Shown here: piece after piece, positions 1 to 15,150 of the stretch
Position numbering within the stretch: position 1 is the stretch's first letter
Layout of the letters: every line of letters begins with the position of its first letter
DNA from: a virus
Reading direction: 5' to 3' (one strand)
IMG/VR virus record: IMGVR_UViG_3300012964_000009
Span: 1-15,150 of that record
Length of the DNA: 15,150 bases
Notes under the pieces: generated by a model
Seen by the model: the letters and a program-made list of their open reading frames with translations, nothing else
What the model was told of the DNA's origin: nothing
Database searches by the model: none
Translations under genes and position numbers: made by a program

Positions 1-123
1 CGATAATATCAATACGTCCAACCTCTTGAAGCCCGACATAATTAACGCTTGATGTATCTCCCCCCAATGAAACTTCGGAAAGCTGACAAGGATTTGCAAT
101 GGGGCCCGTGTACCCACATGTAC
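1..123. repeat. Terminal direct repeat, copy 1 (identical to 15028..15150); overlap produced by linearising a circular molecule
   Basis: Read by eye: cgataatatcaatacgtccaacc...ggggcccgtgtacccacatgtac occurs at both window ends, 123/123 identical. Unit length is 15027 bp. The repeat lies inside an open reading frame. Confidence 0.95.
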
Positions 124-397
124 CGACTACTGCTGGTTCATACTTCATATACCCTGATACTGTGCTGCCGTTTCCATACCAAAGAGTATAATCGACTGTT
201 GTGCCAGTGGGGATGTCTATGGATATTCGTTGAACTGCCTCTCCCGTTGCTGTGTAATCCTGGGTAAGGTTTGTGGGATTTCCCGGGATAAGGATAAGTG
301 TGCCTCCCCCAAGAGGCTCCGCTGTTATCTCATATTCTGCTGACGCGAATGGGATAATAAGAGCTGCAATGAGGAGAACAAAAAGTATTGTTCTCAT
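1..397 (-). CDS. 5' part of a junction-spanning gene (300 aa in total): secreted or membrane protein with an N-terminal signal peptide
   Basis: The ATG at 397 overlaps the stop of the upstream gene (ATGA, 394-397). My translation is MRTILFVLLIAALIIPFASAEYEITAEPLGGGTLILIPGNPTNLTQDYTATGEAVQRISIDIPTGTTVDYTLWYGNGSTVSGYMKYEPAVVGTCGYTGPIANPCQLSEVSLGGDTSSVNYVGLQEVGRIDII. It stays open to base 1 and continues in frame at 15027. This part is not in the ORF track because it is cut by the window edge. Confidence 0.8.
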   Translation of the reverse strand, partial: MRTILFVLLIAALIIPFASAEYEITAEPLGGGTLILIPGNPTNLTQDYTATGEAVQRISIDIPTGTTVDYTLWYGNGSTVSGYMKYEPAVVGTCGYTGPIANPCQLSEVSLGGDTSSVNYVGLQEVGRIDII

Positions 398-2124
398 TTT
401 CTACCCATCCCCATTACGAGATATACAATGGTGAATACTGCAAAGAGTGGGATAAGTAATTTCATCCATCCTCTTACATCATTCATCATTGAACGATCTT
501 GGGCTGCATAACACGCATCGGTATCTTCCCCCCCCTCACACCCCGGCATAATAGTTACCACAACATCCCCATTTGCATTTGTGAGTACTGCGGTAGCTGT
601 TGCAGTTGCTCCGATGGTGATGGGCACCAACTCCATGCGGGTTGTGTCCGGGCCAAAGGATGAGGTTGTGAGGACGCGATCTCCCGATGTGTACCCGGTT
701 TTGGCTACTGTGAGGTGTATTGTGGATACGTTGGGTACTGACATTGTAACTGTACCGGCGCTGTTGGTTGTGGCGATCTGCTGTGTGCCGGCTGGCGTTG
801 TTGCTGATACGGATGCACCCTGCAAGGGTTTGTTGTTGGTAATGTCATTGACGATTACGATCAGGTTGACATTACCTAACCCGGGATCTCCCGATCCTCC
901 GCTGCCGGGCACTGCAAGAAGGTTTGTGGGCCACATGATGATCTCAAATGGCCCCGCTGCTGCTGTAACTCCTGTGCGGGTACTTGTAGTAAATCCGGTT
1001 GCATCTGCATATCCGCTTACGGTGTCCGTAGCTGCTGCGAAGATGTAATGAGATCCGTCAGCATCTGCTGTGGAGTTTGACCAAAGCCCTGTTGTATCAT
1101 CTGTAATCTGGATGTTTGCCCCATAGATTGCACCGGATGTAACTCCGTTAACTGCTGTGAACCATACACGGGATGAGCCGGATGGCGTTGGGGTAGGAGT
1201 AACTGGTGGAATTCCCCCGGATTCATTGAAGTAATTGAGAAATTTTACTGTGGAATTAATGGTATGTCCTGTTGCTGGAACATACATTGAGAATATTACA
1301 TCCGCCCCCACACTCACAACAGATTCGTCCGTGAATCCCGTTGTTCCAGTGTACACGAGGGAATTATTAGAATATATTTTTGTGAGAGATACAGATGATC
1401 CCGATTTAACAATATCTGAATTGAGCAACATTGTATTACTTATCTTCGTTAGGTTCGTTGCTGTGATAGTGTCTGTTGAAGTGGATTCATATGTGAAGTA
1501 GTTAGATCCCGCTGCATTGTACCATGCTCCTGATGTAGAATGATCCCACGTTATTTGCCTACCCCCACAATTCTGATATCCCCCTGCTGTTGGCCCTTGC
1601 TGATATCCAGTAATCTCACGATATGAAGGTATATCCGGCGTGAACGTGATATTTGGATTCATACAACCGGTGTATGTCATTGGTTCCCACGTATCGAAAT
1701 TAAGAAGAATCATCTCTGTATATGTAGAGAAGAACGTCCCATTATCAAATTGATACGTACCGGTTGCGATGGTGTTTGTTCCGAGTTTCAGCTCAAATGT
1801 TCCTGACTGGTCTGGGGCTGGGCCCGGTGCGGCAGATCCTTTTGAGAAGAACGCGTATTCGTTTGGAATCCCGATTGAATCAAAATTTAGATATACCCTC
1901 CGATTATCTCCACCCGTCACCGATGCACCAATATCCCAATTTGGTGTTCCGATGAATGGATCTTCAAGCGTGATCACTTCGGTGGATGCCTGTGCCTGGG
2001 GTGCGATAACAAGCGCAATGAGCAGAATGAACGCAAGGAATGCGACATAGTGGATCATCGCGTCGAAGCATGGGCCGAGTATGGCCTCTTTGCCATACCA
2101 TGTAGGATATTTTGGATATGTCAT
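394..2124 (-). CDS. 576-aa type I membrane surface protein; candidate virion spike (receptor-binding or fusion protein)
   Basis: The track ORF starts at a GTG (2151). The first ATG, at 2124, has AAGGAGAC 8 nt upstream and sits 1 nt after the TAA of the upstream gene. Signal or anchor: VAFLAFILLIALVIAPQAQA/STEV. Thr/Pro linker: PPVTPTPTPSGSS. Two roughly 80-aa segments resemble carboxypeptidase-regulatory (transthyretin-like) beta-sandwich domains (about 622..1170): RVWFTAVNGVTSGAIYGANIQITDDTTG... and GNVNLIVIVNDITNNKPLQGASVSATTPAGTQQIATTNSAGTVTMSV...AKTGYTS. C-terminal TM anchor: WMKLLIPLFAVFTIVYLVMGMGRK. There are 8 N-x-S/T sequons. Confidence 0.7.
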   Translation of the reverse strand: MTYPKYPTWYGKEAILGPCFDAMIHYVAFLAFILLIALVIAPQAQASTEVITLEDPFIGTPNWDIGASVTGGDNRRVYLNFDSIGIPNEYAFFSKGSAAPGPAPDQSGTFELKLGTNTIATGTYQFDNGTFFSTYTEMILLNFDTWEPMTYTGCMNPNITFTPDIPSYREITGYQQGPTAGGYQNCGGRQITWDHSTSGAWYNAAGSNYFTYESTSTDTITATNLTKISNTMLLNSDIVKSGSSVSLTKIYSNNSLVYTGTTGFTDESVVSVGADVIFSMYVPATGHTINSTVKFLNYFNESGGIPPVTPTPTPSGSSRVWFTAVNGVTSGAIYGANIQITDDTTGLWSNSTADADGSHYIFAAATDTVSGYADATGFTTSTRTGVTAAAGPFEIIMWPTNLLAVPGSGGSGDPGLGNVNLIVIVNDITNNKPLQGASVSATTPAGTQQIATTNSAGTVTMSVPNVSTIHLTVAKTGYTSGDRVLTTSSFGPDTTRMELVPITIGATATATAVLTNANGDVVVTIMPGCEGGEDTDACYAAQDRSMMNDVRGWMKLLIPLFAVFTIVYLVMGMGRK

Positions 2125-2125
2125 T

Positions 2126-2470
2126 TTAACGTCTCCTTGCCATTGCAACACCGATCAGAACTGCAATGAAAAATAACACTACTGCATTGGTATTAGCCCA
2201 TGCAATTAATGACGAGAGCCAATCACCCGGATCATCGAGGGGTGTTGTGCTCATCGGTTTCATTGAGAAAATATAAGAATCTCCATCAACGAGGGTTATT
2301 ACCGATGTGCTGTTGTAATAGCCGTACATTGTGCCATTGGGGTGATACACGATGATGTCACGCTCTGCGATGCCGCCGGGATTCGCCAGTGTGATTGTGT
2401 TGGCTTGTACCGGGAAAACTGCCAATGCGATAAGCACCAGCAATGTAAGAATAATGGTTTGTTTGTTCAT
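2126..2470 (-). CDS. 114-aa small type I membrane protein (signal peptide plus C-terminal TM anchor ending RRR)
   Basis: The ATG at 2470 is preceded by TTAGGAGTATGAT (SD). Signal: MNKQTIILTLLVLIALAVFPVQA/NT. C-terminal TM: AVVLFFIAVLIGVAMARRR. The stop lies 1 nt before the next ATG. Confidence 0.75.
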   Translation of the reverse strand: MNKQTIILTLLVLIALAVFPVQANTITLANPGGIAERDIIVYHPNGTMYGYYNSTSVITLVDGDSYIFSMKPMSTTPLDDPGDWLSSLIAWANTNAVVLFFIAVLIGVAMARRR

Positions 2471-2471
2471 A

Positions 2472-4265
2472 TCATACTCCTAATTTCTTTTCAAGTGCTG
2501 CTACTCGTGCTTCGAGTGCTGTGTTCTTTGCATCCTCTTCTTTCAGCGCTTGCACAAGATTGGCGATGATGGCGCGATCGTCAAAGGTATCTGTTGTTGT
2601 GCCTGTTGGAACAAATACAGATTCGTATTCATCCTCTTCGCTTGTTTTGCCTTTTTTTGTAATAACGTTCTTATAATATCCGTCCTGTTTTGTGGCTACT
2701 GCCTCTGGGATGATTAATTTTACATCACCAGCGATAAATCCGATTTTTGTTTGCCCGTCAGAATTGAGAGTATAAGAGGCCGGTTTTAGAGCCTTTGTTT
2801 TTGATATTGCGCTTCCATCATCAGAAAGATATTTTATATTCGATTTTACTTTGGCGTCCGATGTTGTATAGAGGACGCCGTTAGAATCTGCGTATACCGT
2901 CCCTGCCCCAAGTCCACGTATTCTTATGTCTGAATAATCATCAATTAATGCGGTTCCTGTTGTTCCACCAACCGATAGATTTCCGTTAGGGGATATCCTC
3001 ATCCGTTCTATCCCCTGAAGTGTGGTAGATGTCGGCGAGGTGTAAAATATTATATGCGTTGCTGCATTATATACTGTAGATCCGCCCCCCACGTTTAAAT
3101 ATGAGTATGGATTACTTGCTGCCGTAAAAAACATAGCTATAGACTCCTCGGAATTATTATAATGGCCATCTAAATAGTATGCATTTTTTGTCGTCATGTC
3201 CAAAACCGTACTTTGTAATCTAAACGAACCTATCACGTCAAGCGTAACCCCCCCGGGCGTTCTACCAATTCCAACCCTCCCCCCGTCGAGTTGTAAAATT
3301 ACATATGATGAAGTTTTCGTTGCGCTTGACGTGCCGTTAAGGATAAGGTCGTCGTTGGCTGCTGTGCCACCGGTGATTACCTGACCCCCCGGGAGACCGG
3401 GTTTGTAAGCATAGGATTCGTTGATCGCTGTTCCTGCTGGGCCGGGCGGGCCTTGTATTCCTTGAGATGTTATTGGTGATTCAATTTTTGATACACGGGA
3501 ATTGTCATCAAAATAAATTGTCGCTTCTCTCGCCGGTACACTGGTTGTGACAAGGTAATAGCGCATTATGAAGCGGTCGGTTGTATCCATTGGATATGCA
3601 TTGAGCAGAACGTATTCATCTATAAGACGTGTCACGCTGGTTGTGAGAGGTTGTCCTGTGAAACTGTATATCTGGTGTTCTGTGCCGTTGGTGTGGTATG
3701 CGGAGAGATTGTATGCGAGAGATGAAATCCCCGTTGATGTGCTGTCAATTTTGGCGTACGTGTACCACTTGCGATTGCCCGGGGGGAGTGCATTGATATT
3801 GGGGTCTCCTTCGGGCGTCATGAATTGGGCGATGAGTGTATAGGTTCCTGCTCCTGTGGATGTGGCGGATCGGTTGGATTCTTCGAGGTACGGGTATATC
3901 CTGCTCATCGATTGAAAAGAGGTATTCGCGGTTTCATTGGAATTGTGGAGGTAATAGACCACCGGCAATGTCATGGTCATATTTTCTGGACCCATTGGGC
4001 CTTGTGGGCCTTGTGGTCCTTGTAATGGGTTGGTGGGGCATAAGGGAGTCCATTCTGTGAGTGCGTATCGGCAGAAAAACGGTTGGCTTTCTACGGATGG
4101 GTTAATCTCTGCTGCGTGTGCAATTGGTGCAGTTAACAGAATGAATCCGAAGCCAACGCAGATCCACAGTATGATCCATGTTGCGAGTATGCATTTTTCC
4201 TGAAACGGAGTTCGTATAGGATCAGATTCAAAAACGGTATTGTCAGAAAAGATGCTAAAACTCAT
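2472..4265 (-). CDS. 597-aa membrane-anchored fibre protein: N-terminal TM, collagen-like G-X-Y runs, beta-rich shaft, C-terminal S74-type intramolecular chaperone (endosialidase-chaperone) domain
   Basis: ATG at 4265. TM or signal anchor: ILATWIILWICVGFGFILLTAPIAHA. Collagen-like runs: GPQGPQGPMGPE (3984..4019) and GIQGPPGPAGTA (3426..3461). Tail-fibre-like motif: GGRVGIGRTPGGVTLDVIGSF. The C-terminus (aa 469-597, 2475..2861) reads SDAKVKSNIKYLSDDGSAISKTKALKPASYTLNSDGQTKIGFIAGDVKLIIPEAV...IIANLVQALKEEDAKNTALEARVAALEKKL. This matches the S-D-x-x-x-K...GFIAQ-V...PE-V...coiled-coil pattern of phage tail-fibre autoproteolytic chaperone domains. Confidence 0.8.
   Translation of the reverse strand: MSFSIFSDNTVFESDPIRTPFQEKCILATWIILWICVGFGFILLTAPIAHAAEINPSVESQPFFCRYALTEWTPLCPTNPLQGPQGPQGPMGPENMTMTLPVVYYLHNSNETANTSFQSMSRIYPYLEESNRSATSTGAGTYTLIAQFMTPEGDPNINALPPGNRKWYTYAKIDSTSTGISSLAYNLSAYHTNGTEHQIYSFTGQPLTTSVTRLIDEYVLLNAYPMDTTDRFIMRYYLVTTSVPAREATIYFDDNSRVSKIESPITSQGIQGPPGPAGTAINESYAYKPGLPGGQVITGGTAANDDLILNGTSSATKTSSYVILQLDGGRVGIGRTPGGVTLDVIGSFRLQSTVLDMTTKNAYYLDGHYNNSEESIAMFFTAASNPYSYLNVGGGSTVYNAATHIIFYTSPTSTTLQGIERMRISPNGNLSVGGTTGTALIDDYSDIRIRGLGAGTVYADSNGVLYTTSDAKVKSNIKYLSDDGSAISKTKALKPASYTLNSDGQTKIGFIAGDVKLIIPEAVATKQDGYYKNVITKKGKTSEEDEYESVFVPTGTTTDTFDDRAIIANLVQALKEEDAKNTALEARVAALEKKLGV
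3987..4022. repeat. Imperfect 4 x 9-bp tandem repeat (tggacccat tgggccttg tgggccttg tggtccttg) encoding the first collagen-like run
   Basis: Read directly. Units 2-4 (3996..4022) differ by one base; unit 1 is more diverged. Confidence 0.8.
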
Positions 4266-4279
4266 ATAACCCTTTCTTG

Positions 4280-4308
4280 GTACCGGAAGATAATTAATCT
4301 ACCGGTAC
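4280..4308 (-). other. Stem-loop (7-bp stem GTACCGG/CCGGTAC, 15-nt AT-rich loop) in the 67-nt spacer between the 94-aa gene and the fibre gene
   Basis: gtaccgg (4280-4286) pairs with ccggtac (4302-4308). No T-tract follows on the minus strand, so it is not a classical terminator. Confidence 0.45.
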
Positions 4309-4332: not shown

Positions 4333-4617
4333 TTACATCCTTAATTTCGTCAGAATTGAATCGAAAAGATCCGGGAAGAACTTTGCCACTGCCATGACGA
4401 TAAAAAGTGGAATCAAGCCCAGGACAAGCGCTGTGAGGCTCGGGATGAGTGCAGTGATACCATCAACAAGTGGCCCCACTGTGCTGTTGATATCAAAGGT
4501 GACTGCCATCGCGGGTGCTGCGGTTACAACAGCTGCCGCGCCTGCGGTGATCGATAAGCGGTGCGCATGGATCTTGTCCATGAGTGAATCTTTCTTGGTT
4601 ACAACCTCTTCGGTCAT
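4333..4617 (-). CDS. 94-aa small double-hydrophobic protein; candidate major virion (capsid or membrane) protein, possibly N-terminally processed
   Basis: The track start at 4623 is TTG; the first ATG is at 4617 (MTEEVVTKKDSLMDKIHAHRLS...). An Ala-rich hydrophobic stretch ITAGAAAVVTAAPAMA has an AxA-like site (AMA/VT). It is followed by the strongly hydrophobic GITALIPSLTALVLGLIPLFIVMAVA and a short basic tail KFFPDLFDSILTKLRM. This is the first gene after the longest non-coding region, with a TATA-like box 22 nt upstream and no SD. Confidence 0.65.
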   Translation of the reverse strand: MTEEVVTKKDSLMDKIHAHRLSITAGAAAVVTAAPAMAVTFDINSTVGPLVDGITALIPSLTALVLGLIPLFIVMAVAKFFPDLFDSILTKLRM

Positions 4618-4639
4618 AATCAAACATCATCGCGTGCTC

Positions 4640-5398: not shown

Positions 5399-5533
5399 TC
5401 ATTCGCACCGCTTCCATTTTTCGTTTATCATTTCGGCGATTTTGTCATATTCTGATTCTGGGATTTCGAACCAGCTGCAATCAGATCCGGAAGGAAAGTC
5501 ACCTTCTAACTTTAATCCGATTTTAAAAATCAT
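5399..5533 (-). CDS. 44-aa small protein, hypothetical (below the ORF-track cut-off)
   Basis: My translation: MIFKIGLKLEGDFPSGSDCSWFEIPESEYDKIAEMINEKWKRCE. The ATG at 5533 is preceded by ACGGAGGCACCGAG (GGAGG, 7-nt spacing) and overlaps the end of the upstream gene. Confidence 0.5.
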   Translation of the reverse strand: MIFKIGLKLEGDFPSGSDCSWFEIPESEYDKIAEMINEKWKRCE

Positions 5534-6245
5534 CTCGGTGCCTCCGTGGGCTTGGGGTGCTGGTGCTCCGGAGGGATTCTATCGTTGTCTTTAATTGATT
5601 TCCATCGATCTCAAAATACGAGCATCCGTCGCATTTGCGTTCTCCGTTTCTTTGTCCAATACATCCACCTTCTGCTGAAATCTTATCGTCATAAAATGCA
5701 CAGGTTGTTAACGAATCTTCGATTTCTTTTAGCACGCCCTCGCGGGCTTGGGCGATAATGGCGGCGTCGTGCTTTGGTGTTGTGATGATGTTTGAGCATT
5801 TGGGGCAGGTATGTTCCGTTGTTTCCGGTGCTGCTTGGGATGGGATTTTTGCATTACGCCCGATTATATTATATGGTGCGGCGGGGGATGGGCGGGAACG
5901 GGTGTACTTACCGTGCCGTATTCCTGCAAGGAGCACTTGAATTTTAATTTCCAGTTCCTTGAGATCGACTGCTTCTTTCTCGATATTGATAAGTTCTGCA
6001 TAAATCGCATTGCCATCAAGGTCCTGCTGTGGCTGCTGTTGTGGATATGGGATGTGATTTAATCCCAGATCGCCATCGTCAATAGTTTCTGTTGCTTTCG
6101 GACATTTTCCATGATTGCAGATCCAGAAACAATCCCCCATAATCTTATCGCATTTGATCCATGCAACTCCATCGCCTTTGATTACAACAGATGCATCTTT
6201 GCAATGTTCCATCCCTTTGTGCTGCTGTGGCTGTGGGGGGTTCAT
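5523..6245 (-). CDS. 240-aa cysteine-rich protein (11 Cys, CxxC pairs), paralogue of the 174-aa protein; putative zinc-binding, function unknown
   Basis: The ATG at 6245 overlaps the upstream stop as ATGA. N-terminus: MNPPQPQQ; internal PYPQQQPQQ. Motifs RSRPSPAAP, HTCPKCS, AQAREGVLKEIE, KCDGCSY and ESLRSTS are shared, in the same order, with 6433..6957. Confidence 0.7.
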   Translation of the reverse strand: MNPPQPQQHKGMEHCKDASVVIKGDGVAWIKCDKIMGDCFWICNHGKCPKATETIDDGDLGLNHIPYPQQQPQQDLDGNAIYAELINIEKEAVDLKELEIKIQVLLAGIRHGKYTRSRPSPAAPYNIIGRNAKIPSQAAPETTEHTCPKCSNIITTPKHDAAIIAQAREGVLKEIEDSLTTCAFYDDKISAEGGCIGQRNGERKCDGCSYFEIDGNQLKTTIESLRSTSTPSPRRHRDDF

Positions 6246-6436
6246 CGCCGATTCTCCTCACAAAACTTATTCCAAAGATCGTCTATCTTCTTTTGCTCCA
6301 CGTCGCACTTTTTGCAATACTCATCGAACAAAACATCACACGCCTTATCGTGCTTCGCTTGGGCTTCGTGGAGTTTATCATACTGTTCTTGTGTGAAATT
6401 TATTCCGTGTATTGAACACGGCCTGTCTTTACTCAT
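6242..6436 (-). CDS. 64-aa Cys-containing small protein, hypothetical
   Basis: ATGA overlaps at both ends (6433-6436 and 6242-6245). Sequence: MSKDRPCSIHGINFTQEQYDKLHEAQAKHDKACDVLFDEYCKKCDVEQKK... Confidence 0.6.
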   Translation of the reverse strand: MSKDRPCSIHGINFTQEQYDKLHEAQAKHDKACDVLFDEYCKKCDVEQKKIDDLWNKFCEENRR

Positions 6437-6957
6437 CTCTCTACCTCCTTGGTGCTTTGGGTGCCTGTGCGGAGGGATTCAAGATATTTCTCTGGATTTG
6501 CCTGACATTCGCATAAGATATCAAGAATTTGTGATCTGGTTTTTCCTATTGTCTGCCGGTTCAATTCAACTACAAGTTCCTCGCGGGCTTGGGCGGCTGC
6601 TTCTTGGGTTGTTGTAAATATTCTACACGTTGCTCTACAAGATCGATTTGCGGTTTTGCTTGGACACGGATTGCAACAATCTGGCTCCGGTGAGGCGGGG
6701 GATGGGCGGGTGTCATTGTGTTGATAGATACATTCCTCACATGGTGGCCGGGGTTTGATGGAGGAGGATGGGCGGGACCGAATGCTTTTCTGGTGCTTGC
6801 ATCCAGTCACTTTTACAACTTTCTGAAACCGTTTCAAGTCGGATGTGTTGTTTATGGCATCTTCTGGAACAGGACATGTTCCCTGCCCGTCGTGTTCACA
6901 ATCTTCACAACAGAACCATTCATGCGGCTGCTGTGGTTGCTGTGGGGTGGGGGTCAT
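6433..6957 (-). CDS. 174-aa cysteine-rich protein (14 Cys), paralogue of the 240-aa protein; function unknown
   Basis: ATG at 6957 (ATGA overlap). Sequence features: MTPTPQQPQQPHEWFCCEDCEHDGQGTC..., RSRPSSS, TRPSPASP, PPCEECIY, DCCNPC, AAQAREELVVELN, ESLRTGT. Confidence 0.7.
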   Translation of the reverse strand: MTPTPQQPQQPHEWFCCEDCEHDGQGTCPVPEDAINNTSDLKRFQKVVKVTGCKHQKSIRSRPSSSIKPRPPCEECIYQHNDTRPSPASPEPDCCNPCPSKTANRSCRATCRIFTTTQEAAAQAREELVVELNRQTIGKTRSQILDILCECQANPEKYLESLRTGTQSTKEVER

Positions 6958-8482: not shown

Positions 8483-8490
8483 TATTTATA
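8483..8490 (-). promoter_or_regulatory. TATA-like box (minus strand TATAAATA) overlapping the rep stop codon; putative promoter of the early unit
   Basis: 22 nt separate it from the ATG at 8460, the same spacing as the 4640..4647 box. Confidence 0.45.
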
Positions 8491-9655
8491 GGTATCCATC
8501 TTGCGCCAATTTGAGGCGCTGGCGTAGGGTGAGGGTTGGAGTGGTTGGCTCCTGATTTATGATTGTTGGCTTTGGTTTTCTTCCCCACTCGCAGAAATAT
8601 AGGGGGGGTGGATCGGTAATGCGTACTTTGCCTCTTGGATCTAACCAAAAATCATTATCTATCCAATCCGGGATATACTGACGATACCAGATTACCCTAT
8701 CAATTTCTACTTCCTCATTTTCTGGCGTGAGTTCGACTGTTTTTAATCGTGTTTCCAACCATACCATATCTGTTTCGTGGTCATCCTTCAAGCACATCAT
8801 ATGAGAGATGGCTTTTGATGCACCATACAGGCGGAATTTGTTATCCCATAAATGGGCATTAAAAATGAGTGTGCCTATTGACCATCCATCAAGAAGGAAT
8901 CCTGGGCGAAGGTATTTGATAAGATAGCTTTTGAGATTCTTTATATCGTCCTTATTTTTTGAGAAGTCAAGTCCGTATGTGTGGGAACCTGTACCATATT
9001 TGCGAGACCAGAGATCGCGTAATTTATCCTCCATCCCTCTACCCCGTGAGTCCTTTACATTGTTTGAAACATCAGCAAATACTGCTAGGTGATAATGCGC
9101 ATATCCTGCGTCTCCTGTTGGGTGTGGTTCAACTACCCAAAAGTAATCAGGTGCTCCGCAATATTTCTTAATCAGTTTGAGGAGTTTCACCCGGGATATG
9201 TTGAGCTGGTGCCATGCGTCCTGTACAGTTACTGTGTCCGGATGATAAGCTGTAAGGGTGATCATTGTCACGGGCCTATCACTGTGCGACTGGAACCAAA
9301 AATCGAGACGTTCTAGTTTGTCAGAAAGTTCTCTTCTGCGTACCGGTCCCCATCGGTTATTGTACGACATAGGGAGATTGAGGACCTTCCCTTTCTTCGT
9401 GTCATATCCTTTTACCATGAATCCCTTTTGCTCGCATTGATCCAGATATTTCACAAAATCCTGACATACGAAATCGTTCTTGTGCCTGGAATCGGTACCC
9501 GGTTGCTCTAGAAGCCGGATGAGAGCGTCCTTTGCTAGATCACTGGGTTGTGTGGATGTTATGCTTATGACTTGCCTAGACGGAGAAGGTTTCCCGCTTC
9601 GCGGGTTCTGACGCTGCGCTGTGCTCTTGCGATGAGCCCCATACGGGAGCGGCAA
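8486..9655 (-). CDS. rep: HUH-superfamily rolling-circle replication initiator (Rep); start codon uncertain
   Basis: Motif I: VTMITLT (aa 129-135). Motif II: EPHPTGDAGYAHYHLAVF (H187-x-H189 followed by hydrophobics; 9089..9097). Motif III: LKSYLIKYLRPG with twin tyrosines Y244/Y248 (8912..8926), comparable to YVAKY of phiX174 protein A. The track start at 9655 is TTG. The first in-frame ATG is codon 80 (9418), preceded by AAAGGGA. Confidence 0.85.
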   Translation of the reverse strand: MPLPYGAHRKSTAQRQNPRSGKPSPSRQVISITSTQPSDLAKDALIRLLEQPGTDSRHKNDFVCQDFVKYLDQCEQKGFMVKGYDTKKGKVLNLPMSYNNRWGPVRRRELSDKLERLDFWFQSHSDRPVTMITLTAYHPDTVTVQDAWHQLNISRVKLLKLIKKYCGAPDYFWVVEPHPTGDAGYAHYHLAVFADVSNNVKDSRGRGMEDKLRDLWSRKYGTGSHTYGLDFSKNKDDIKNLKSYLIKYLRPGFLLDGWSIGTLIFNAHLWDNKFRLYGASKAISHMMCLKDDHETDMVWLETRLKTVELTPENEEVEIDRVIWYRQYIPDWIDNDFWLDPRGKVRITDPPPLYFCEWGRKPKPTIINQEPTTPTLTLRQRLKLAQDGYL

Positions 9656-10905: not shown

Positions 10906-11703
10906 TCATTCCAATTGCCACCAGTGCGGCTCTATTAAGTCGTGAGTATTGACAAGGACTTTTATATCCTTGATTTGTGTGTCTGATGGAACAACGAAGG
11001 GAATATAGCCTGACCACATATTAGATTTGCCGCAACGGAGCCGTTGTTTTTCGTAAGCCACTGGGAGTCCTTCGCTGTTATATTCTCGACTATATCCGTA
11101 TGGCTGGATTGTTTCGACGTGTCGATAATCCCATATCTCATCAAAGTCGTGTAGTCTGATGGATGGGAGCAACTCTTCGGTTCTTTGATAGATGTTGCCT
11201 TTTATGTCGAGAGTGAAATATTGCGGTTGGAATCCCCACATGCGAGAAGAATTATCGTCGGTGTATGATGCTGCATAGATGAATAGGAATTTCTTACCCT
11301 CTCCGGGATTCGCCACAAAATATTGTCCCCATGATACAGACCACCACTCCACCATTGATAATTCTTTATGGCCCCATACTGTGATGTGAGCGGTTACGTC
11401 CTTATAGCCGGATACATTGACTTTCTCAAATGTCAGCCATTGCCCTTGCTTCATACCATTATATTTTGCAAGGAACTGGGCTTCGGATAATGTGGGTTCT
11501 GGTGTGGGCGTTGGTGTTGCGATCGTTTCTATGATTATTTCGCTGGTTGGCTGTGGTGTTGGTATCGGAGTATCGACAAGGTTTTTATAAGTATTCTTCG
11601 CCGATGTGACACACCCCCCAGTCACTACCATTAATATGACGATCATCAATAATCCAAGTACCATCATTAATTGGAAAACGGTGTGATATTTTTCTTCAAT
11701 CAT
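10906..11703 (-). CDS. 265-aa exported protein: N-terminal TM with a lipobox-like TGGC, Thr/Pro linker, beta-rich domain (possibly DUF4352-like)
   Basis: ATG at 11703. VFQLMMVLGLLMIVILMVVTGGC; PIPTPQPTSEIIIETIATPTPTPEPT; then KQGQWLTFEKVNVSGYKDVTAHITVWG...GKKFLFIYAASYTDDNSS. Confidence 0.6.
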   Translation of the reverse strand: MIEEKYHTVFQLMMVLGLLMIVILMVVTGGCVTSAKNTYKNLVDTPIPTPQPTSEIIIETIATPTPTPEPTLSEAQFLAKYNGMKQGQWLTFEKVNVSGYKDVTAHITVWGHKELSMVEWWSVSWGQYFVANPGEGKKFLFIYAASYTDDNSSRMWGFQPQYFTLDIKGNIYQRTEELLPSIRLHDFDEIWDYRHVETIQPYGYSREYNSEGLPVAYEKQRLRCGKSNMWSGYIPFVVPSDTQIKDIKVLVNTHDLIEPHWWQLE

Positions 11704-12844
11704 CGGTGATCACTGGGAATCCTTCGTACCTGCTGATGAGAGCATCCGTTTCTTCTGGCTTGACAACCATTTGAGAAAACCGCCCCAACTCGGGGAAGCA
11801 CTCTTCTGTAATTTCTGATTCTTCGTTTCTTTGGTCATATTTTCCCTCATATGTAACTCGTAATCGTTTTACCCATTCCCTATCTTTTTTATCTTTTGGA
11901 TAGTGTCGGAAATTCCATGGCTTTGTTGGTGGATACGAATCGCCATTTTCAAAGACAAAGCGCCCATGCTGCGTTTTGAACTGCATTGGGGAGGGTGGAT
12001 CTCTATGAAGTGCATGGGTGCACCATTTAGAGATATTTCCATTCTCTTCTGACTTGACCATTCCCCCGTGACATATGATATTGAAAAGCATATTTTCACG
12101 GGCTGCTGGGGGAATGTTGGTGTATCCCTGTGCATAGAGGACTTCCCTTATTCCTGCGCTACGAAGTTCAAATGCATTTTCTGTTATGGCTTCGGTTGAC
12201 TTTGTGCGCTCCCCATCACCTGAAACACGCTTGCCTGCCATCGCCCACTGTGATTCGTCAATATGCATGGATGCGGGGAATATGTTTGGCATACTCCCAT
12301 CACGACATCTTTCTGCGAGTCCTTCAAAGAAATCGCATACCCATTCGATCGCCATCTCTTTTCGTCGGAAGAAATTGCGGAATGAAATAATGGTGATGGT
12401 GTCGCGCTCGGGTCTATCGTGACGAGTGCCACGAGAACCCACTGCGATTGATGATAATGCATCCTGGGGATTTGATACGTTTACAATCTCTGGATGATCT
12501 TGGATGGGTTGCCATTTCCCATTGTGGTACTCTTCGATGCAGATGTTACAAGCTGTGGGAAGAATGATCCTGATTTTTCTATCCATGCAAAGTAGGGGGA
12601 GTATTTCTCCCTGCTTGCCGGAATCGAACCATATCTGTGTTTCTAGATGTTTGAGCCAATCGATAAGTGCATACCCCTTATTGGTTTTTCCGGCAGATGT
12701 TACCCCAAAGATGAATATGTGCTTTCCGTGACCACATAAGAATTCATCATAGAATCGTCTGCCCACTGCGGTTGTGATAAAAGTGCGCTGTGATTCGTCT
12801 AACTTTTCTAAAAATTTTGGATGTATTCCGACTGTGCGCCCCAT
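11696..12844 (-). CDS. 382-aa P-loop NTPase, FtsK/HerA/VirB4-like; candidate genome-packaging or morphogenesis ATPase
   Basis: Walker A: GVTSAGKT (12683..12706, ggg gta aca tct gcc gga aaa acc). Walker B-like: SMHIDESQW (D196 E197). Q/R segment: EVLYAQGYTNIPPAARENM. No TM segment. The ATG at 12844 shares a base with the upstream TAA. Confidence 0.7.
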   Translation of the reverse strand: MGRTVGIHPKFLEKLDESQRTFITTAVGRRFYDEFLCGHGKHIFIFGVTSAGKTNKGYALIDWLKHLETQIWFDSGKQGEILPLLCMDRKIRIILPTACNICIEEYHNGKWQPIQDHPEIVNVSNPQDALSSIAVGSRGTRHDRPERDTITIISFRNFFRRKEMAIEWVCDFFEGLAERCRDGSMPNIFPASMHIDESQWAMAGKRVSGDGERTKSTEAITENAFELRSAGIREVLYAQGYTNIPPAARENMLFNIICHGGMVKSEENGNISKWCTHALHRDPPSPMQFKTQHGRFVFENGDSYPPTKPWNFRHYPKDKKDREWVKRLRVTYEGKYDQRNEESEITEECFPELGRFSQMVVKPEETDALISRYEGFPVITDD

Positions 12845-14525: not shown

Positions 14526-15150
14526 GGAAATATCCTCCTTATTGTTGCTGGTATGTTGACGAGTGCATAGACAATTTCTATTAGGAATCGCACGAGCGCA
14601 ACCTGATCACTTATCCACTGTCTAAAGAATTTCTCAAGATTGCCCCGCGAATTGCGTGCTGCAAAGGCCATTGTTGCCGTCATGTATGATGCAATGATGA
14701 GATCCAAATTATTGAAGAAGAAAATTGTCCATCGGAGCATCGACTCCATAAAATCCATTACGAATTCTGTAATTTTACGGGCGAACTGGACATATTCATC
14801 TATTGCATCGAGGATACTAGTTATTGCGGCTTTCTCTACTTTATCCCGTGGTGCAACGTAAAGCGCAATCCCCGTTAAGGGTTTGTTAGATGAAAGTGAG
14901 TATTTGTAAATAACCCCCTGTGCTGCATAGAAAGCCATTGCATCTCCGCTGGAATGATATCCATATGTGGAATCATACACGAGGAATCCTTGCGTGTATG
15001 GTGTGGTAGATTTGTCTTTTGCATATCCGATAATATCAATACGTCCAACCTCTTGAAGCCCGACATAATTAACGCTTGATGTATCTCCCCCCAATGAAAC
15101 TTCGGAAAGCTGACAAGGATTTGCAATGGGGCCCGTGTACCCACATGTAC
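14522..15150 (-). CDS. 3' part of the junction-spanning 300-aa gene; C-terminal half carries two hydrophobic helices (membrane anchor)
   Basis: 397 nt (397->1) plus 506 nt (15027->14522) = 903 nt = 300 codons plus stop. The M of track ORF 14522..15094 is an internal TTG (Leu in SLGGDTSS). Hydrophobic segments are WTIFFFNNLDLIIASYMTATMAFAA and ALVRFLIEIVYALVNIPATI. Bases 15028-15150 duplicate 1-123. Confidence 0.8.
   Translation of the reverse strand, partial: TCGYTGPIANPCQLSEVSLGGDTSSVNYVGLQEVGRIDIIGYAKDKSTTPYTQGFLVYDSTYGYHSSGDAMAFYAAQGVIYKYSLSSNKPLTGIALYVAPRDKVEKAAITSILDAIDEYVQFARKITEFVMDFMESMLRWTIFFFNNLDLIIASYMTATMAFAARNSRGNLEKFFRQWISDQVALVRFLIEIVYALVNIPATIRRIFP
15028..15150. repeat. Terminal direct repeat, copy 2 (identical to 1..123)
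   Basis: Same 123-nt string as 1..123; position 15028 corresponds to position 1. Confidence 0.95.

What the first reader, a model, noticed from the sequence alone, without database searches (positions are those of the whole stretch)
2472..4265. Membrane-anchored collagen-like fibre with an S74 intramolecular chaperone domain in an apparently archaeal element
The 597-aa product combines four elements. First, an N-terminal TM or signal anchor (ILATWIILWICVGFGFILLTAPIAHA). Second, two short collagen-like runs (GPQGPQGPMGPE and GIQGPPGPAGTA). Third, a beta-rich shaft with the tail-fibre motif GGRVGIGRTPGGVTLDVIG. Fourth, a C-terminal roughly 130 aa with the hallmark pattern of the endosialidase and tail-fibre autoproteolytic chaperone: TTS/DAKVKSNIKYL...IGFIAGDV..IIPEAV...coiled coil. 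Cleavage is predicted at Ser469. In tailed phages this domain trimerises the fibre and then cuts itself off. Finding it on a protein that appears anchored by its N-terminus in a membrane, in a genome with no tail genes, suggests a spike of a type not described before. It may also record gene exchange between bacterial phage fibres and archaeal viruses.
Basis: partly seen in the sequence, partly recalled or inferred. Interest (0 to 1): 0.75.

Follow-up and report, generated by a model that had tools for sequence, protein, structure and literature searches.

The report
Phage-type self-cleaving fibre on tailless archaeal element
A small circular, apparently tailless virus-like element linked to methane-producing archaea encodes an exported fibre built from tailed-phage parts, including a self-cleaving folding domain, in a gene slot that related elements fill with other host-recognition proteins.

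Summary
A 597-aa ORF lies on the minus strand at 2472-4265. It has one N-terminal hydrophobic segment, two conserved 4-triplet collagen-like runs, a jelly-roll domain, a beta-rich shaft and a genuine Peptidase_S74 chaperone domain (Pfam 36 bits against a cutoff of 22). Ser469 and Lys474 are invariant and align to the catalytic SDxxxK motif.

The window is a complete 15,027-bp circle with a rolling-circle Rep, a P-loop ATPase and many membrane proteins. No capsid, portal, terminase or tail genes were detected. Relatives are common in metagenomes, at least one is temperate, and the few binned ones point to Methanoregula and Geoglobus.

The new point is modularity. At least 26 representative proteins share a leader peptide and an INPSVE..C..W..C module, but end in S74 fibres, long collagen with other heads, or lectin-like domains. 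One close relative has an esterase in that slot instead.

The N-terminal anchor claim is doubtful. A small-x-small cleavage motif is conserved, and many relatives have short classical signal peptides. However, S74-bearing members have longer, anchor-like leaders.

The closest analogue is the Bdellovibrio MAT fibre family. Verdict: a new variant of a known kind, of moderate interest.

The parts
2472..4265 (-). Complete ORF of the 597-aa fibre precursor, stop codon included
   Evidence: Full-length homologues P0002-P0009 share 28-46% identity. The same 597-aa ORF is called in Logan and ENA assemblies.
4194..4265 (-). n-region, aa 1-24, a cytoplasmic extension before the hydrophobic core
   Evidence: There is no alternative start codon. 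The extension is partly conserved in P0002 and P0003. Long n-regions are typical of S74-type members.
4113..4193 (-). Hydrophobic leader, aa 25-51, ending in AHA. Most likely a Sec signal peptide, possibly a signal anchor
   Evidence: Hydropathy. Small-x-small at -3/-1 in 25 of 26 relatives. Short classical signal peptides in many relatives. AF2 predicts a helix at aa 20-45.
4026..4112 (-). Conserved N-module, aa 52-80 (AEINPSVE..C65..W..C75). Proposed virion- or envelope-docking end
   Evidence: I54-E59 are invariant among close homologues and N55-V58 in all nine. It is the only part shared with non-S74 slot proteins such as the L005 316-aa protein and P0012.
3984..4019 (-). Collagen-like run 1, aa 83-94 (GPQGPQGPMGPE)
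   Evidence: Conserved in position in homologues. Below the Pfam threshold.
3471..3968 (-). Jelly-roll beta-sandwich domain, aa ~100-265, a candidate carbohydrate- or receptor-binding domain
   Evidence: AF2 pLDDT about 80-90. Foldseek matches CBM4, CBM16, TNF-like lectins and the CocE jelly roll. It superposes at 2.5-3.5 A on uncultured tailed-phage proteins. There are 284 representative homologues, often flanked by collagen.
3426..3461 (-). Collagen-like run 2, aa 269-280 (GIQGPPGPAGTA)
2862..3425 (-). Beta-rich shaft, aa 281-468, including INESYAYKPGLPGGQ and the capping-loop-like motif GGRVGIGRTPGGVTL
   Evidence: The family profile hits Bdellovibrio MAT fibre structures 8OND (3e-9), 8OML and 8ON4. 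PHROG tail-fibre families match. The monomer AF2 model is poor here, as expected for an obligate trimer.
2475..2861 (-). Peptidase_S74 intramolecular chaperone domain, aa 469-597. Predicted to be released by cleavage between Thr468 and Ser469
   Evidence: Pfam PF13884 at 36 bits against a cutoff of 22. Profile alignment to MYRF 7DC3, GA-1 3GUD and a tail fibre 8JOV. Foldseek hit to 3GW6.
2859..2861 (-). Codon of Ser469, the predicted nucleophile and cleavage site
   Evidence: Invariant in 9 of 9 members. Aligns to profile position 1 and to the catalytic position of MYRF. Coordinates checked.
2844..2846 (-). Codon of Lys474, the predicted general base of the Ser-Lys dyad (S+5)
   Evidence: Invariant. 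Aligned to the MYRF catalytic Lys. Coordinates checked.
2484..2579 (-). C-terminal helix, aa 563-594, a predicted trimeric coiled coil of the chaperone
   Evidence: AF2 helix 563-594 at pLDDT about 70. Conserved heptad-like sequence in homologues.
4280..4308 (.). Hairpin (12-nt arms, 5-nt loop) 14 nt upstream of the fibre start codon
   Evidence: Its function was not tested.
4333..4623 (-). Small coat- or membrane-like protein (96 aa; leader plus hydrophobic helix), conserved directly upstream of the fibre slot
   Evidence: No similarity to His1 VP21 or HRPV-1 VP3.
2126..2470 (-). 114-aa type-I membrane protein (signal peptide plus C-terminal TM and RRR). Strongly conserved in the structural block (60-71% identity to L002/L001, 35% to L005). 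Candidate membrane partner of the fibre
   Evidence: The partner role is an inference.
394..2151 (-). 585-aa envelope-protein candidate (signal peptide, unmodelled ectodomain, Thr/Pro linker, two CarboxypepD_reg/CnaB-like domains, C-terminal TM)
   Evidence: The test for a VP4-like fusogen fold was inconclusive.
11696..12844 (-). P-loop ATPase (382 aa), the hallmark gene of the element family
   Evidence: More than 160 clusters. Weak TrwB, HerA and FtsK signals only. Relatives in Methanoregula and Geoglobus MAGs.
8486..9655 (-). Rolling-circle replication initiator (HUH type)
   Evidence: Pfam PF23343 at 28.8 bits against a cutoff of 27.8. 52% identical to the L001 Rep.
1..123 (.). Terminal redundancy, identical to 15028-15150. 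Shows the window is a closed 15,027-bp circle

Best explanation
The gene encodes the precursor of an exported, trimeric receptor-binding fibre. It belongs to a small (15,027 bp) circular, rolling-circle-replicating, tailless virus-like element of methanogen-related Euryarchaeota.

Proposed pathway:
1. The N-terminal leader (aa 25-51) sends the chain through the Sec translocon. It is most likely removed after AHA51. This exposes the conserved INPSVE..C..C module (aa 52-80), which holds the fibre on the particle or envelope through a conserved partner. The adjacent 114-aa type-I membrane protein is the best candidate for that partner.
2. The C-terminal S74 domain (aa 469-597, ending in a coiled coil) brings three chains together. 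It templates folding of the beta-rich shaft (aa 281-468). This also sets the register of the two short collagen-like runs that flank a lectin-like jelly-roll domain (aa 100-265).
3. The Ser469/Lys474 dyad then cuts between Thr468 and Ser469 and releases the chaperone. A mature fibre of about 417 residues per chain remains, with its distal end free to bind the host surface.
4. The gene sits in a swappable host-recognition slot. Related elements keep the leader and N-module but carry other distal parts, or carry an unrelated esterase.

What is shown: domain identities, invariant catalytic residues, the circular genome, absence of detectable tail or capsid genes, and slot variability.

What is inferred: trimerisation, self-cleavage, leader cleavage, the docking partner, presence in the virion, and the host.
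For: S74 domain:
- Pfam hit above the curated cutoff, starting exactly at Ser469.
- S469, D470, K472 and K474 are invariant.
- The family profile aligns SDeKlK to the MYRF catalytic motif. It also hits GA-1, a tail fibre (8JOV) and an LTF distal subunit (6F45).
- Foldseek hits 3GW6.
- A C-terminal helix is predicted at 563-594.

Shaft and jelly roll:
- The shaft is homologous to experimentally trimeric Bdellovibrio and phage beta-helix fibres (PMC10769870).
- The jelly roll is confidently modelled and resembles CBMs and lectins.
- It recurs in collagen-, S74-, Mtd_N- and Gp10_C-containing phage fibre proteins.

Leader and N-module:
- 25 of 26 N-module proteins have small-x-small directly before the module. 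Many have 17-21-aa classical signal peptides.
- The N-module is the only part shared between S74 and non-S74 slot proteins.

Slot variability among syntenic genomes:
- S74 fibres in the window, L001, L002 and L019.
- Collagen plus other heads in L004/L005, L014, L015, L016 and L017.
- A GDSL-like esterase with its own C-terminal TM in L012, whose ATPase is 72% identical to the window's.

Element:
- The genome is circular.
- It has an HUH Rep, an ATPase and many membrane proteins, with no capsid or tail hits.
- It has a temperate relative.
- Host hints are archaeal.
Against: - No experiment and no trimer model supports trimerisation or cleavage. The monomer AF2 model is poor for the shaft (pLDDT 25-45).
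- Virion membership is untested. The element could be a plasmid.
- The virion type is unknown. Profile comparisons with pleolipovirus and His1 structural proteins were negative. The fusogen fold could not be modelled.
- The window protein's leader has a 24-aa n-region and a 27-aa uncharged stretch, which is long for a cleaved signal peptide.
- Host assignment rests on a few short MAG contigs. One of them is labelled Dehalococcoidia.
Confidence: 0.6

Rival explanations
1. The N-terminal hydrophobic segment is an uncleaved signal anchor. The fibre would then be a type-II membrane protein rooted directly in the viral envelope, with a short internal tail (aa 1-24). The S74 domain would fold the ectodomain and then leave.
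For: - S74-type members have longer n-regions (mean 16 vs 5 aa) and longer uncharged stretches (25.7 vs 18.3 aa, p=3e-4) than non-S74 members. That is long enough to span a membrane.
- AF2 predicts a 26-residue helix at aa 20-45.
- A fibre that loses its C-terminus cannot use a C-terminal anchor, whereas the esterase in L012's slot does use one.
Against: - The small-x-small motif is conserved exactly before the invariant INPSVE module in all S74 members.
- Three S74 members (P0004, P0048, P0007) and L019 have short classical signal peptides.
- The homologous N-module must work with a free N-terminus in the non-S74 relatives.
- The statistics are not corrected for phylogeny.
Confidence: 0.3
2. 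The protein is not a virion component. It is a cell-surface adhesin encoded by a plasmid or provirus, like the Bdellovibrio MAT fibres on the predator cell. It could promote cell-cell contact, vesicle-mediated transfer or superinfection exclusion.
For: - No capsid protein is recognisable.
- The ATPase shows only weak TrwB, T2SSE and HerA-like signals, which are also found in transfer systems.
- The nearest structural relatives of the shaft are cellular Bdellovibrio fibres.
- The architecture of leader, conserved N-domain and variable tip matches MAT proteins (PMC10769870).
Against: - The fibre gene always lies inside a conserved block of small membrane proteins and a large envelope-type protein. 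This layout resembles the morphogenetic modules of enveloped archaeal viruses.
- Three relatives are in IMG/VR.
- The genomes are uniformly about 12-19 kb, with a free circular form and an integrated form of the same element.
- No conjugation genes are recognisable.
Confidence: 0.17
3. The S74 domain is retained only as a trimerisation module and no longer cleaves. The mature fibre would then keep its C-terminal coiled coil.
For: No cleavage data exist. The Pfam score is moderate (36 bits), and lower in relatives (23-33 bits).
Against: The Ser-Lys dyad and the flanking Asp are invariant across homologues as divergent as 28% identity. That is hard to explain without catalytic constraint. In all tested S74 proteins with SDxxxK, cleavage occurs (PMC10769870 and the references in it).
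Confidence: 0.1
4. The contig is a fragment or satellite of a tailed virus (bacterial or archaeal), and the protein is an ordinary tail fibre.
For: All recognisable modules of the protein come from the tailed-phage fibre repertoire.
Against: - The window is a closed circle of 15 kb with its own Rep.
- No tail, portal, terminase or capsid families were detected in this genome. The precomputed Pfam annotations of the related contigs list none either.
- The protein has a Sec-type leader, which cytoplasmically assembled tail fibres lack.
Confidence: 0.04

Closest known systems
Bdellovibrio bacteriovorus MAT (mosaic adhesive trimer) fibres, e.g. Bd3182 and Bd2133 (PMC10769870; PDB 8OND, 8OML, 8ON4, 8OJN)
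   Same: - Signal peptide, then a conserved N-terminal attachment part, then a variable trimeric beta-helical shaft with VG(I/N)G..P...L capping-loop motifs.
- Either an S74 SDxxxK chaperone tip or alternative non-S74 tips.
- Tip swapping within one family.
- Sequence-level homology of the shaft.
   Different: - MAT proteins are chromosomal genes of a predatory bacterium and are displayed on the cell or a vesicle.
- Their conserved N-domain is about 130 aa and beta-rich. Here it is a Cys-containing module of about 29 aa.
- No collagen runs or inserted jelly roll are described for MAT proteins.
- The fibre here sits on a 15-kb mobile element of archaea.
Tail spikes and fibres of tailed phages with a C-terminal intramolecular chaperone (K1F endosialidase 3GW6, T5 pb1, GA-1 gp12 3GUD). 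Pfam PF13884, MEROPS S74
   Same: - The same C-terminal domain and Ser-Lys dyad.
- The same position after a beta-rich trimeric shaft.
- The predicted release point lies at the conserved Ser.
- PHROG tail-fibre families match.
   Different: - Those proteins fold in the cytoplasm, have no leader peptide and attach to a tail or baseplate.
- Here there is a Sec-type leader, no tail genes, and identity of only 26-40% over the C-terminal third.
Pleolipovirus-like enveloped archaeal viruses (Pleolipoviridae; 'Thalassapleoviridae' of Archaeoglobi, PMC10919331)
   Same: - Small circular genome of 7-17 kb, with an HUH Rep in some members.
- Genes on one strand.
- A block consisting of a small membrane protein, a large signal-peptide/C-terminal-TM envelope protein and an NTPase.
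- Temperate members with tyrosine integrases.
- An ATPase relative in a Geoglobus MAG.
- Some members (His2, AvPV1) carry a second spike-like gene.
   Different: - No profile similarity of the ATPase, envelope protein or small membrane protein to the HRPV-1 or His2 counterparts.
- The VP4 fusogen fold was not demonstrable.
- No collagen or S74 fibre is mentioned in the pleolipovirus survey searched, and the entry review does not mention collagen or chaperone domains.
Myelin regulatory factor (MYRF) ICA domain (PDB 7DC3)
   Same: A homologous S74-type domain with an aligned catalytic Ser/Lys. It occurs in a membrane-associated protein outside tailed phages and drives trimerisation and self-cleavage.
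   Different: MYRF is a eukaryotic ER-membrane transcription factor. Cleavage releases the N-terminal trimer from a C-terminal membrane anchor. It has no fibre function.
Collagen-repeat fibre proteins of uncultured tailed phages and giant viruses (BFVD hits such as A0A6J5SWS4, A0A6J5NH96 and Solivirus A0A3G5AFS0)
   Same: They combine collagen repeats, the same jelly-roll insert and often an IMC/S74 end.
   Different: They have long bona fide collagen domains, whereas the window protein has two vestigial 4-triplet runs. They lack the leader and the INPSVE module, and their genomic context is different.

Membership tests
Peptidase_S74 / C-terminal intramolecular chaperone domain (Pfam PF13884, MEROPS S74) | Profile match above the curated threshold | tested here: met
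   36 bits against a cutoff of 22, E=8.8e-9. Residues 469-523 cover profile positions 1-57 of 58. Homologues L001, L002 and L019 also pass.
Peptidase_S74 / C-terminal intramolecular chaperone domain (Pfam PF13884, MEROPS S74) | Catalytic Ser-Lys dyad in an SDxxxK motif | tested here: met
   S469-D-A-K-V-K474. S469, D470 and K474 are invariant in 9 of 9 members. The motif aligns to the MYRF catalytic motif in 7DC3.
Peptidase_S74 / C-terminal intramolecular chaperone domain (Pfam PF13884, MEROPS S74) | Located at the extreme C-terminus after a beta-rich trimeric stalk, and ending in a helical bundle | tested here: met
   The domain spans aa 469-597, the end of the protein. The shaft profile hits beta-helix fibres. 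A helix is predicted at 563-594. Foldseek hits 3GW6.
Peptidase_S74 / C-terminal intramolecular chaperone domain (Pfam PF13884, MEROPS S74) | Autoproteolytic release and chaperone-dependent trimerisation | not testable with these tools
   This needs expression of wild type against S469A and K474A. No multimer prediction was available.
Collagen triple-helix repeat (Pfam PF01391) | Profile match, i.e. a long uninterrupted run of G-X-Y | tested here: not met
   No Pfam Collagen hit at E<=0.1 for the window protein. It has only two runs of 4 triplets. Relatives do meet it: 30 of 63 N-domain homologues, plus the L014, L016, L017 and L019 proteins. The window protein is collagen-like but is not a member.
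Tail fibre of a tailed virus (Caudoviricetes context) | Genome encodes an HK97-fold capsid, portal, terminase and tail or baseplate | tested here: not met
   None was detected in the window's ORFs with Pfam, PHROGs or NCBIfam. The genome is a closed 15-kb circle. The precomputed Pfam annotations of the related contigs list none either. Sequence-profile methods could miss very divergent proteins.
Pleolipoviridae and pleolipovirus-like viruses | VP4-like V-shaped fusogen, VP3-like membrane protein and VP8-like NTPase | tested here: inconclusive
   hhalign of the ATPase, 585-aa and 96-aa families against HRPV-1 VP8, VP4 and VP3 and against His2 ORF33 gave probabilities below 2%. The AF2 model of the 585-aa ectodomain failed (pLDDT about 25), so the fold test could not be done. 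Gene layout and membrane topology are similar.
Inovirus-like (Tubulavirales) elements | pI/Zot-type morphogenesis ATPase with a TM segment, plus short single-TM coat proteins | tested here: not met
   No Zot hit, not even at E<=10, in 12 family members. The ATPase sequence shows no hydrophobic segment. A gpII-type Rep (PF23343) and a small coat-like protein are present.
Spindle-shaped archaeal viruses (SSV1/His1-type major capsid protein) | Homologue of the VP1/VP21 two-helix capsid protein | tested here: not met
   hhalign of the 96-aa family against His1 VP21 gave probability 1%. There was no PHROG hit. SSV1 VP1 itself was not tested.
Bdellovibrio-type MAT fibres | Signal peptide, conserved N-terminal attachment domain, variable trimeric shaft, and S74 or non-S74 tip within one family | tested here: met
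   The architecture is reproduced in 26 N-module proteins, 14 with S74 and 12 without. The shaft is homologous to 8OND and 8OML. The N-terminal attachment parts are of different size and were not shown to be homologous. This is therefore a functional analogue with a shared shaft and tip, not the same family.

The most novel reading that the evidence does not exclude
A widespread, so far undescribed lineage of temperate, roughly 12-19-kb circular, tailless viruses of methanogen-related archaea recognises hosts with a swappable cassette of Sec-exported, phage-derived trimeric fibres. In this lineage the S74 autochaperone works outside the cytoplasm. The unusually long, anchor-like leader of the S74 variants would tether three chains in the membrane until the chaperone has zipped them together. 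This would be the first S74 fibre in a non-tailed prokaryotic virus, and a new way of mounting a phage fibre on an enveloped particle.
Probability: 0.35. Interest if true: 0.7.

Novelty: new variant of a known kind. Interest (0 to 1): 0.55.

Why it matters
The S74 chaperone is the standard device by which tailed phages fold and quality-check their receptor-binding fibres.

Finding it with an export leader, on a small tailless archaeal element, shows that this fibre toolkit crosses the boundary between unrelated virus architectures. It also shows that the toolkit can be adapted to assembly outside the cytoplasm.

The finding exposes an abundant, unclassified family of methanogen-associated elements (more than 160 ATPase clusters). 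That family has a clearly delimited, hypervariable host-recognition slot. This gives a practical handle for predicting host range and receptor type of viruses that may affect methane-producing communities.

It also yields simple testable predictions: S469A should block cleavage, and the mature N-terminus should be Ala52.

Tried and rejected
1. Pfam Collagen on the window protein gave no hit. I therefore call the runs collagen-like only.

2. Whole-protein search of PDB sequences with the single sequence gave nothing. The family profile was needed.

3. Scans of reference genomes and IMG/VR with fibre N-domain patterns found no relatives. The first attempt failed because the alignment was too divergent.

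4. tblastn of the Rep and the ATPase against annotated phage and archaeal-virus genomes found no match.

5. Pleolipovirus kinship: hhalign against HRPV-1 VP8, VP4 and VP3 and against the His2 ATPase was negative.

6. Spindle-virus kinship: the His1 VP21 comparison was negative.

7. Inovirus kinship: there is no Zot signature and no TM segment in the ATPase.

8. Rep-Arvir family (PMC13107129): this is a different Rep family (DUF7845), not the one here.

9. AF2 of the 585-aa envelope protein, to test for a VP4-like fold, failed for the ectodomain. The fold search returned only CnaB/transthyretin-like domains.

10. Host naming through exact look-up of host-flank proteins of provirus L004 returned no organism names. 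No tRNA genes were found in five related loci scanned, including L004.

11. Literature searches for S74 or collagen fibres in non-tailed archaeal viruses found nothing relevant.

12. No tRNA or Rfam family is present in the window.


Full report
**1. What is at the coordinates**

The finding's coordinates hold a 597-aa ORF, but on the minus strand (2472-4265, ATG start). There is no other start codon within the first 60 codons. One public gene call starts at Met91 (P0001, 507 aa). Independent Logan and ENA assemblies call the full 597 aa, and homologues conserve the N-terminal part, so the long form is right.

**2. The four elements**

(a) Hydrophobic segment. There is one, at aa 25-51. It is the only stretch with high hydropathy.

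(b) Collagen-like runs. There are two G-X-Y runs of four triplets each, at aa 83-94 and 269-280. They are too short for Pfam Collagen (no hit at E<=0.1). Alone they are only mildly unlikely: two or more such runs occur in 3.3% of shuffles. They are conserved in position in most homologues. Relatives have true collagen domains.

(c) Shaft. The family profile of the beta-rich shaft (aa 281-468) matches Bdellovibrio fibre structures (8OND E=3e-9, 8OML, 8ON4) and phage fibres.

(d) S74 domain. Pfam PF13884 gives 36 bits against a cutoff of 22, with E=8.8e-9. Profile positions 1-57 cover residues 469-523. Thirteen PHROG tail, tail-fibre or virion-structural families hit the C-terminal third. Ser469, Asp470, Lys472 and Lys474 are invariant in all nine family members, down to 28% identity. 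The family profile aligns 'SDeKlK' to the catalytic motif of MYRF in 7DC3, and also hits GA-1 3GUD and two tail-fibre structures. Foldseek finds the endosialidase chaperone 3GW6. AF2 predicts a terminal helix at aa 563-594.

**3.

Residues ~100-265 form a confidently modelled jelly-roll beta-sandwich (pLDDT about 80-90). It resembles carbohydrate-binding modules, TNF-like lectins and the CocE jelly roll.

An exhaustive search with aa 1-300 found 284 representative homologues at E<=1e-3. Of 63 proteins sampled (the window protein and 62 homologues), 30 carry Pfam Collagen and 9 carry S74. Others carry Mtd_N, Gp10_C or BppL_N.

In BFVD the top hits are tailed-phage or giant-virus fibre proteins. 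The jelly roll superposes at 2.5-3.5 A over about 175 residues. The whole distal architecture therefore comes from the tailed-phage fibre repertoire.

**4. The element**

The window has a perfect 123-nt terminal direct repeat, so it is a closed circle of 15,027 bp. About 87% of it is covered by minus-strand ORFs.

Recognisable genes:
- an HUH rolling-circle Rep (PF23343);
- a Dam-type methyltransferase;
- a 382-aa P-loop ATPase with only weak TrwB, HerA and FtsK-like signals;
- many small membrane proteins.

Around the fibre gene lie a 96-aa coat- or membrane-like protein, a 114-aa type-I membrane protein, and a 585-aa protein. The 585-aa protein has a signal peptide, a Thr/Pro linker, two CarboxypepD_reg/CnaB-like domains and a C-terminal TM.

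No capsid, portal, terminase or tail family was found in any ORF with Pfam, PHROGs or NCBIfam. There is no tRNA or Rfam hit.

**5. The wider family and the host**

The ATPase defines a large family of more than 160 clusters at 90% identity, mostly on contigs of 10-19 kb. Three IMG/VR contigs belong to it.

L005 is another closed circle (75-nt terminal repeat). The same element is integrated in an 85-kb contig next to a tyrosine integrase and host genes that include the archaeal family DUF2124. The lineage is therefore temperate.

In reference genomes, ATPase relatives occur on contigs of a Methanoregula MAG (44% identity), a Geoglobus MAG (27%) and a short contig binned as Dehalococcoidia (56%), which I regard as mis-binned. 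One related contig encodes an archaeal Pilin_N protein.

These points make an archaeal, methanogen-related host likely but not proven.

**6. Virion type**

The gene layout recalls pleolipovirus-like viruses, including the HUH-Rep-bearing Geoglobus proviruses of PMC10919331. However, profile comparisons with HRPV-1 and His2 proteins were negative. The 585-aa ectodomain could not be modelled. The His1 capsid comparison was negative. The ATPase lacks the inovirus pI/Zot signature.

Virion type remains open between pleomorphic, spindle and filamentous. A plasmid is not excluded.

**7. The key new result: a swappable slot**

Full-length homologues of the fibre sit in the same block in L001 and L002: small membrane protein, then fibre, then a 114-137-aa protein, then a 480-585-aa protein.

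Other syntenic genomes fill the slot differently.
- L004/L005 and L014 have 316-386-aa proteins with a classical signal peptide, the same INPSVE..C..W.CD module, a real collagen domain and an unrelated head.
- L015 has collagen plus Gly_rich_2.
- L016 and L017 have collagen heads.
- L019 has collagen plus S74.
- L012, whose ATPase is 72% identical to the window's, has a GDSL-like esterase with PKD-like repeats and its own C-terminal TM, and no N-module.

Among the representative proteins, 26 carry the N-module. Fourteen end in S74 and twelve do not.

Fibre type does not follow ATPase relatedness, which indicates cassette exchange. The N-module is the only constant part, so it is the best candidate for the end that holds the protein on the particle. 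This mirrors the constant N-terminal parts of phage fibres and of Bdellovibrio MAT proteins.

**8. Anchor or signal peptide**

In 25 of 26 N-module proteins a small-x-small motif (AHA in the window) lies directly before the invariant module. Twelve non-S74 members, three S74 members and L019 have leaders of 17-21 uncharged residues, typical of cleaved Sec signal peptides. This favours cleavage after Ala51.

However, S74 members have longer n-regions (mean 16 vs 5 aa) and longer uncharged stretches (mean 25.7 vs 18.3 aa; Mann-Whitney p=3e-4, not corrected for phylogeny). The window protein has 24 and 27. This is unexplained.

One possibility is that the leader acts as a transient tether that keeps three chains together while the chaperone works outside the cell. 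I put a permanent anchor at about 0.3.

**9. Mechanism proposed**

The pathway is export, probable leader cleavage, C-terminal nucleation of the trimer by the S74 domain, folding of the shaft and registration of the collagen runs and jelly rolls, then self-cleavage at Thr468|Ser469. The mature trimer (aa 52-468) would be mounted by its N-module.

Only the domain identities, the invariant residues and the genomic context are shown. The rest is inferred from the behaviour of characterised S74 proteins. For example, the S782A mutant of Bd3182 stays uncleaved (PMC10769870).

**10. Comparison and novelty**

The domain is a bona fide S74 member. The protein is not a member of the Pfam collagen family. 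The element is not demonstrably a pleolipovirus, inovirus or spindle virus.

The closest described system in design is the Bdellovibrio MAT family, with which it shares shaft homology. The context is new: an export-leader-bearing S74 fibre in a swappable slot of a tailless archaeal element.

I found no description of this in a pleolipovirus survey. An entry review does not mention collagen or chaperone domains, and targeted searches found nothing relevant.

I rate it a new variant of a known kind, with interest 0.55.

Noticed in passing
window 1-123 and 15028-15150: A perfect 123-nt terminal direct repeat. The window is a complete circular genome of 15,027 bp, with about 87% of it covered by ORFs on one strand.
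   Followed up: yes
window 4280-4308: A hairpin (12-nt arms, 5-nt loop) 14 nt upstream of the fibre start codon, between the 96-aa coat-like gene and the fibre gene. No T-run follows. It may tune the expression ratio of the two genes.
   Followed up: partly
window 5523-6245 and 6433-6957: Two neighbouring genes (240 and 174 aa) share DNA repeats (GGTG[CA]GGCGGGGGATGGGCGGG and CCTCGCGGGCTTGGGCG), PQQPQQ stretches and Cys-rich motifs. They are probably diverged paralogues of unknown function.
   Followed up: no
window 2472-4265 (protein P0001): The JGI gene call for this ORF starts at Met91 (507 aa). It therefore misses the leader, the N-module and the first collagen run. The Logan and ENA calls have the full 597 aa.
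   Followed up: yes
L012 2055-3953: In the closest sampled relative (ATPase 72% identical), the fibre slot holds a 632-aa protein. It has a signal peptide, a GDSL/SGNH-like esterase domain (Pfam 25 bits, below the cutoff), PKD-like repeats and a C-terminal TM. It could be a receptor-destroying or receptor-modifying enzyme.
   Followed up: partly
N-module proteins P0002-P0144: S74-ending members have significantly longer n-regions and uncharged leader stretches than non-S74 members, although all keep a signal-peptidase motif. This is unexplained.
   Followed up: partly
L004 (85-kb contig) and L005 (15.7-kb circle): The same relative occurs both as a free circle (75-nt terminal repeat) and integrated next to a tyrosine integrase and host genes (DUF2124, DUF169, and a 947-aa Big_1/Invasin_D3 protein). 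The lineage is temperate. The window itself has no integrase.
   Followed up: partly
L016/L017 (IMGVR_UViG_3300037067_016798, 33.5 kb): One IMG/VR contig carries two ATPase copies (67-68% identical to the window's), each next to its own collagen-type N-module fibre. This is either two related genomes in tandem or an assembly chimera.
   Followed up: no
L006 (JBAZEO010000095.1): A 7.7-kb contig binned as a Dehalococcoidia MAG carries a 56%-identical ATPase of this element family. It is probably a binning error rather than a bacterial host.
   Followed up: no
window 394-2151: The 585-aa envelope-protein candidate has a PPVTPTPTPSGSS linker and two CarboxypepD_reg/CnaB-like domains before its C-terminal TM. 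Its 270-aa N-terminal ectodomain has very few homologues and could not be modelled.
   Followed up: partly
L003 10001-17204: A more distant S74 fibre (925 aa) has a different N-terminus that contains the common phage-fibre motif FLFLNGSRPMEGNL. It is followed by a 1458-aa ORF with no Pfam hit, on a 26.9-kb contig with an integrase. This may be a different kind of element using the same fibre.
   Followed up: no
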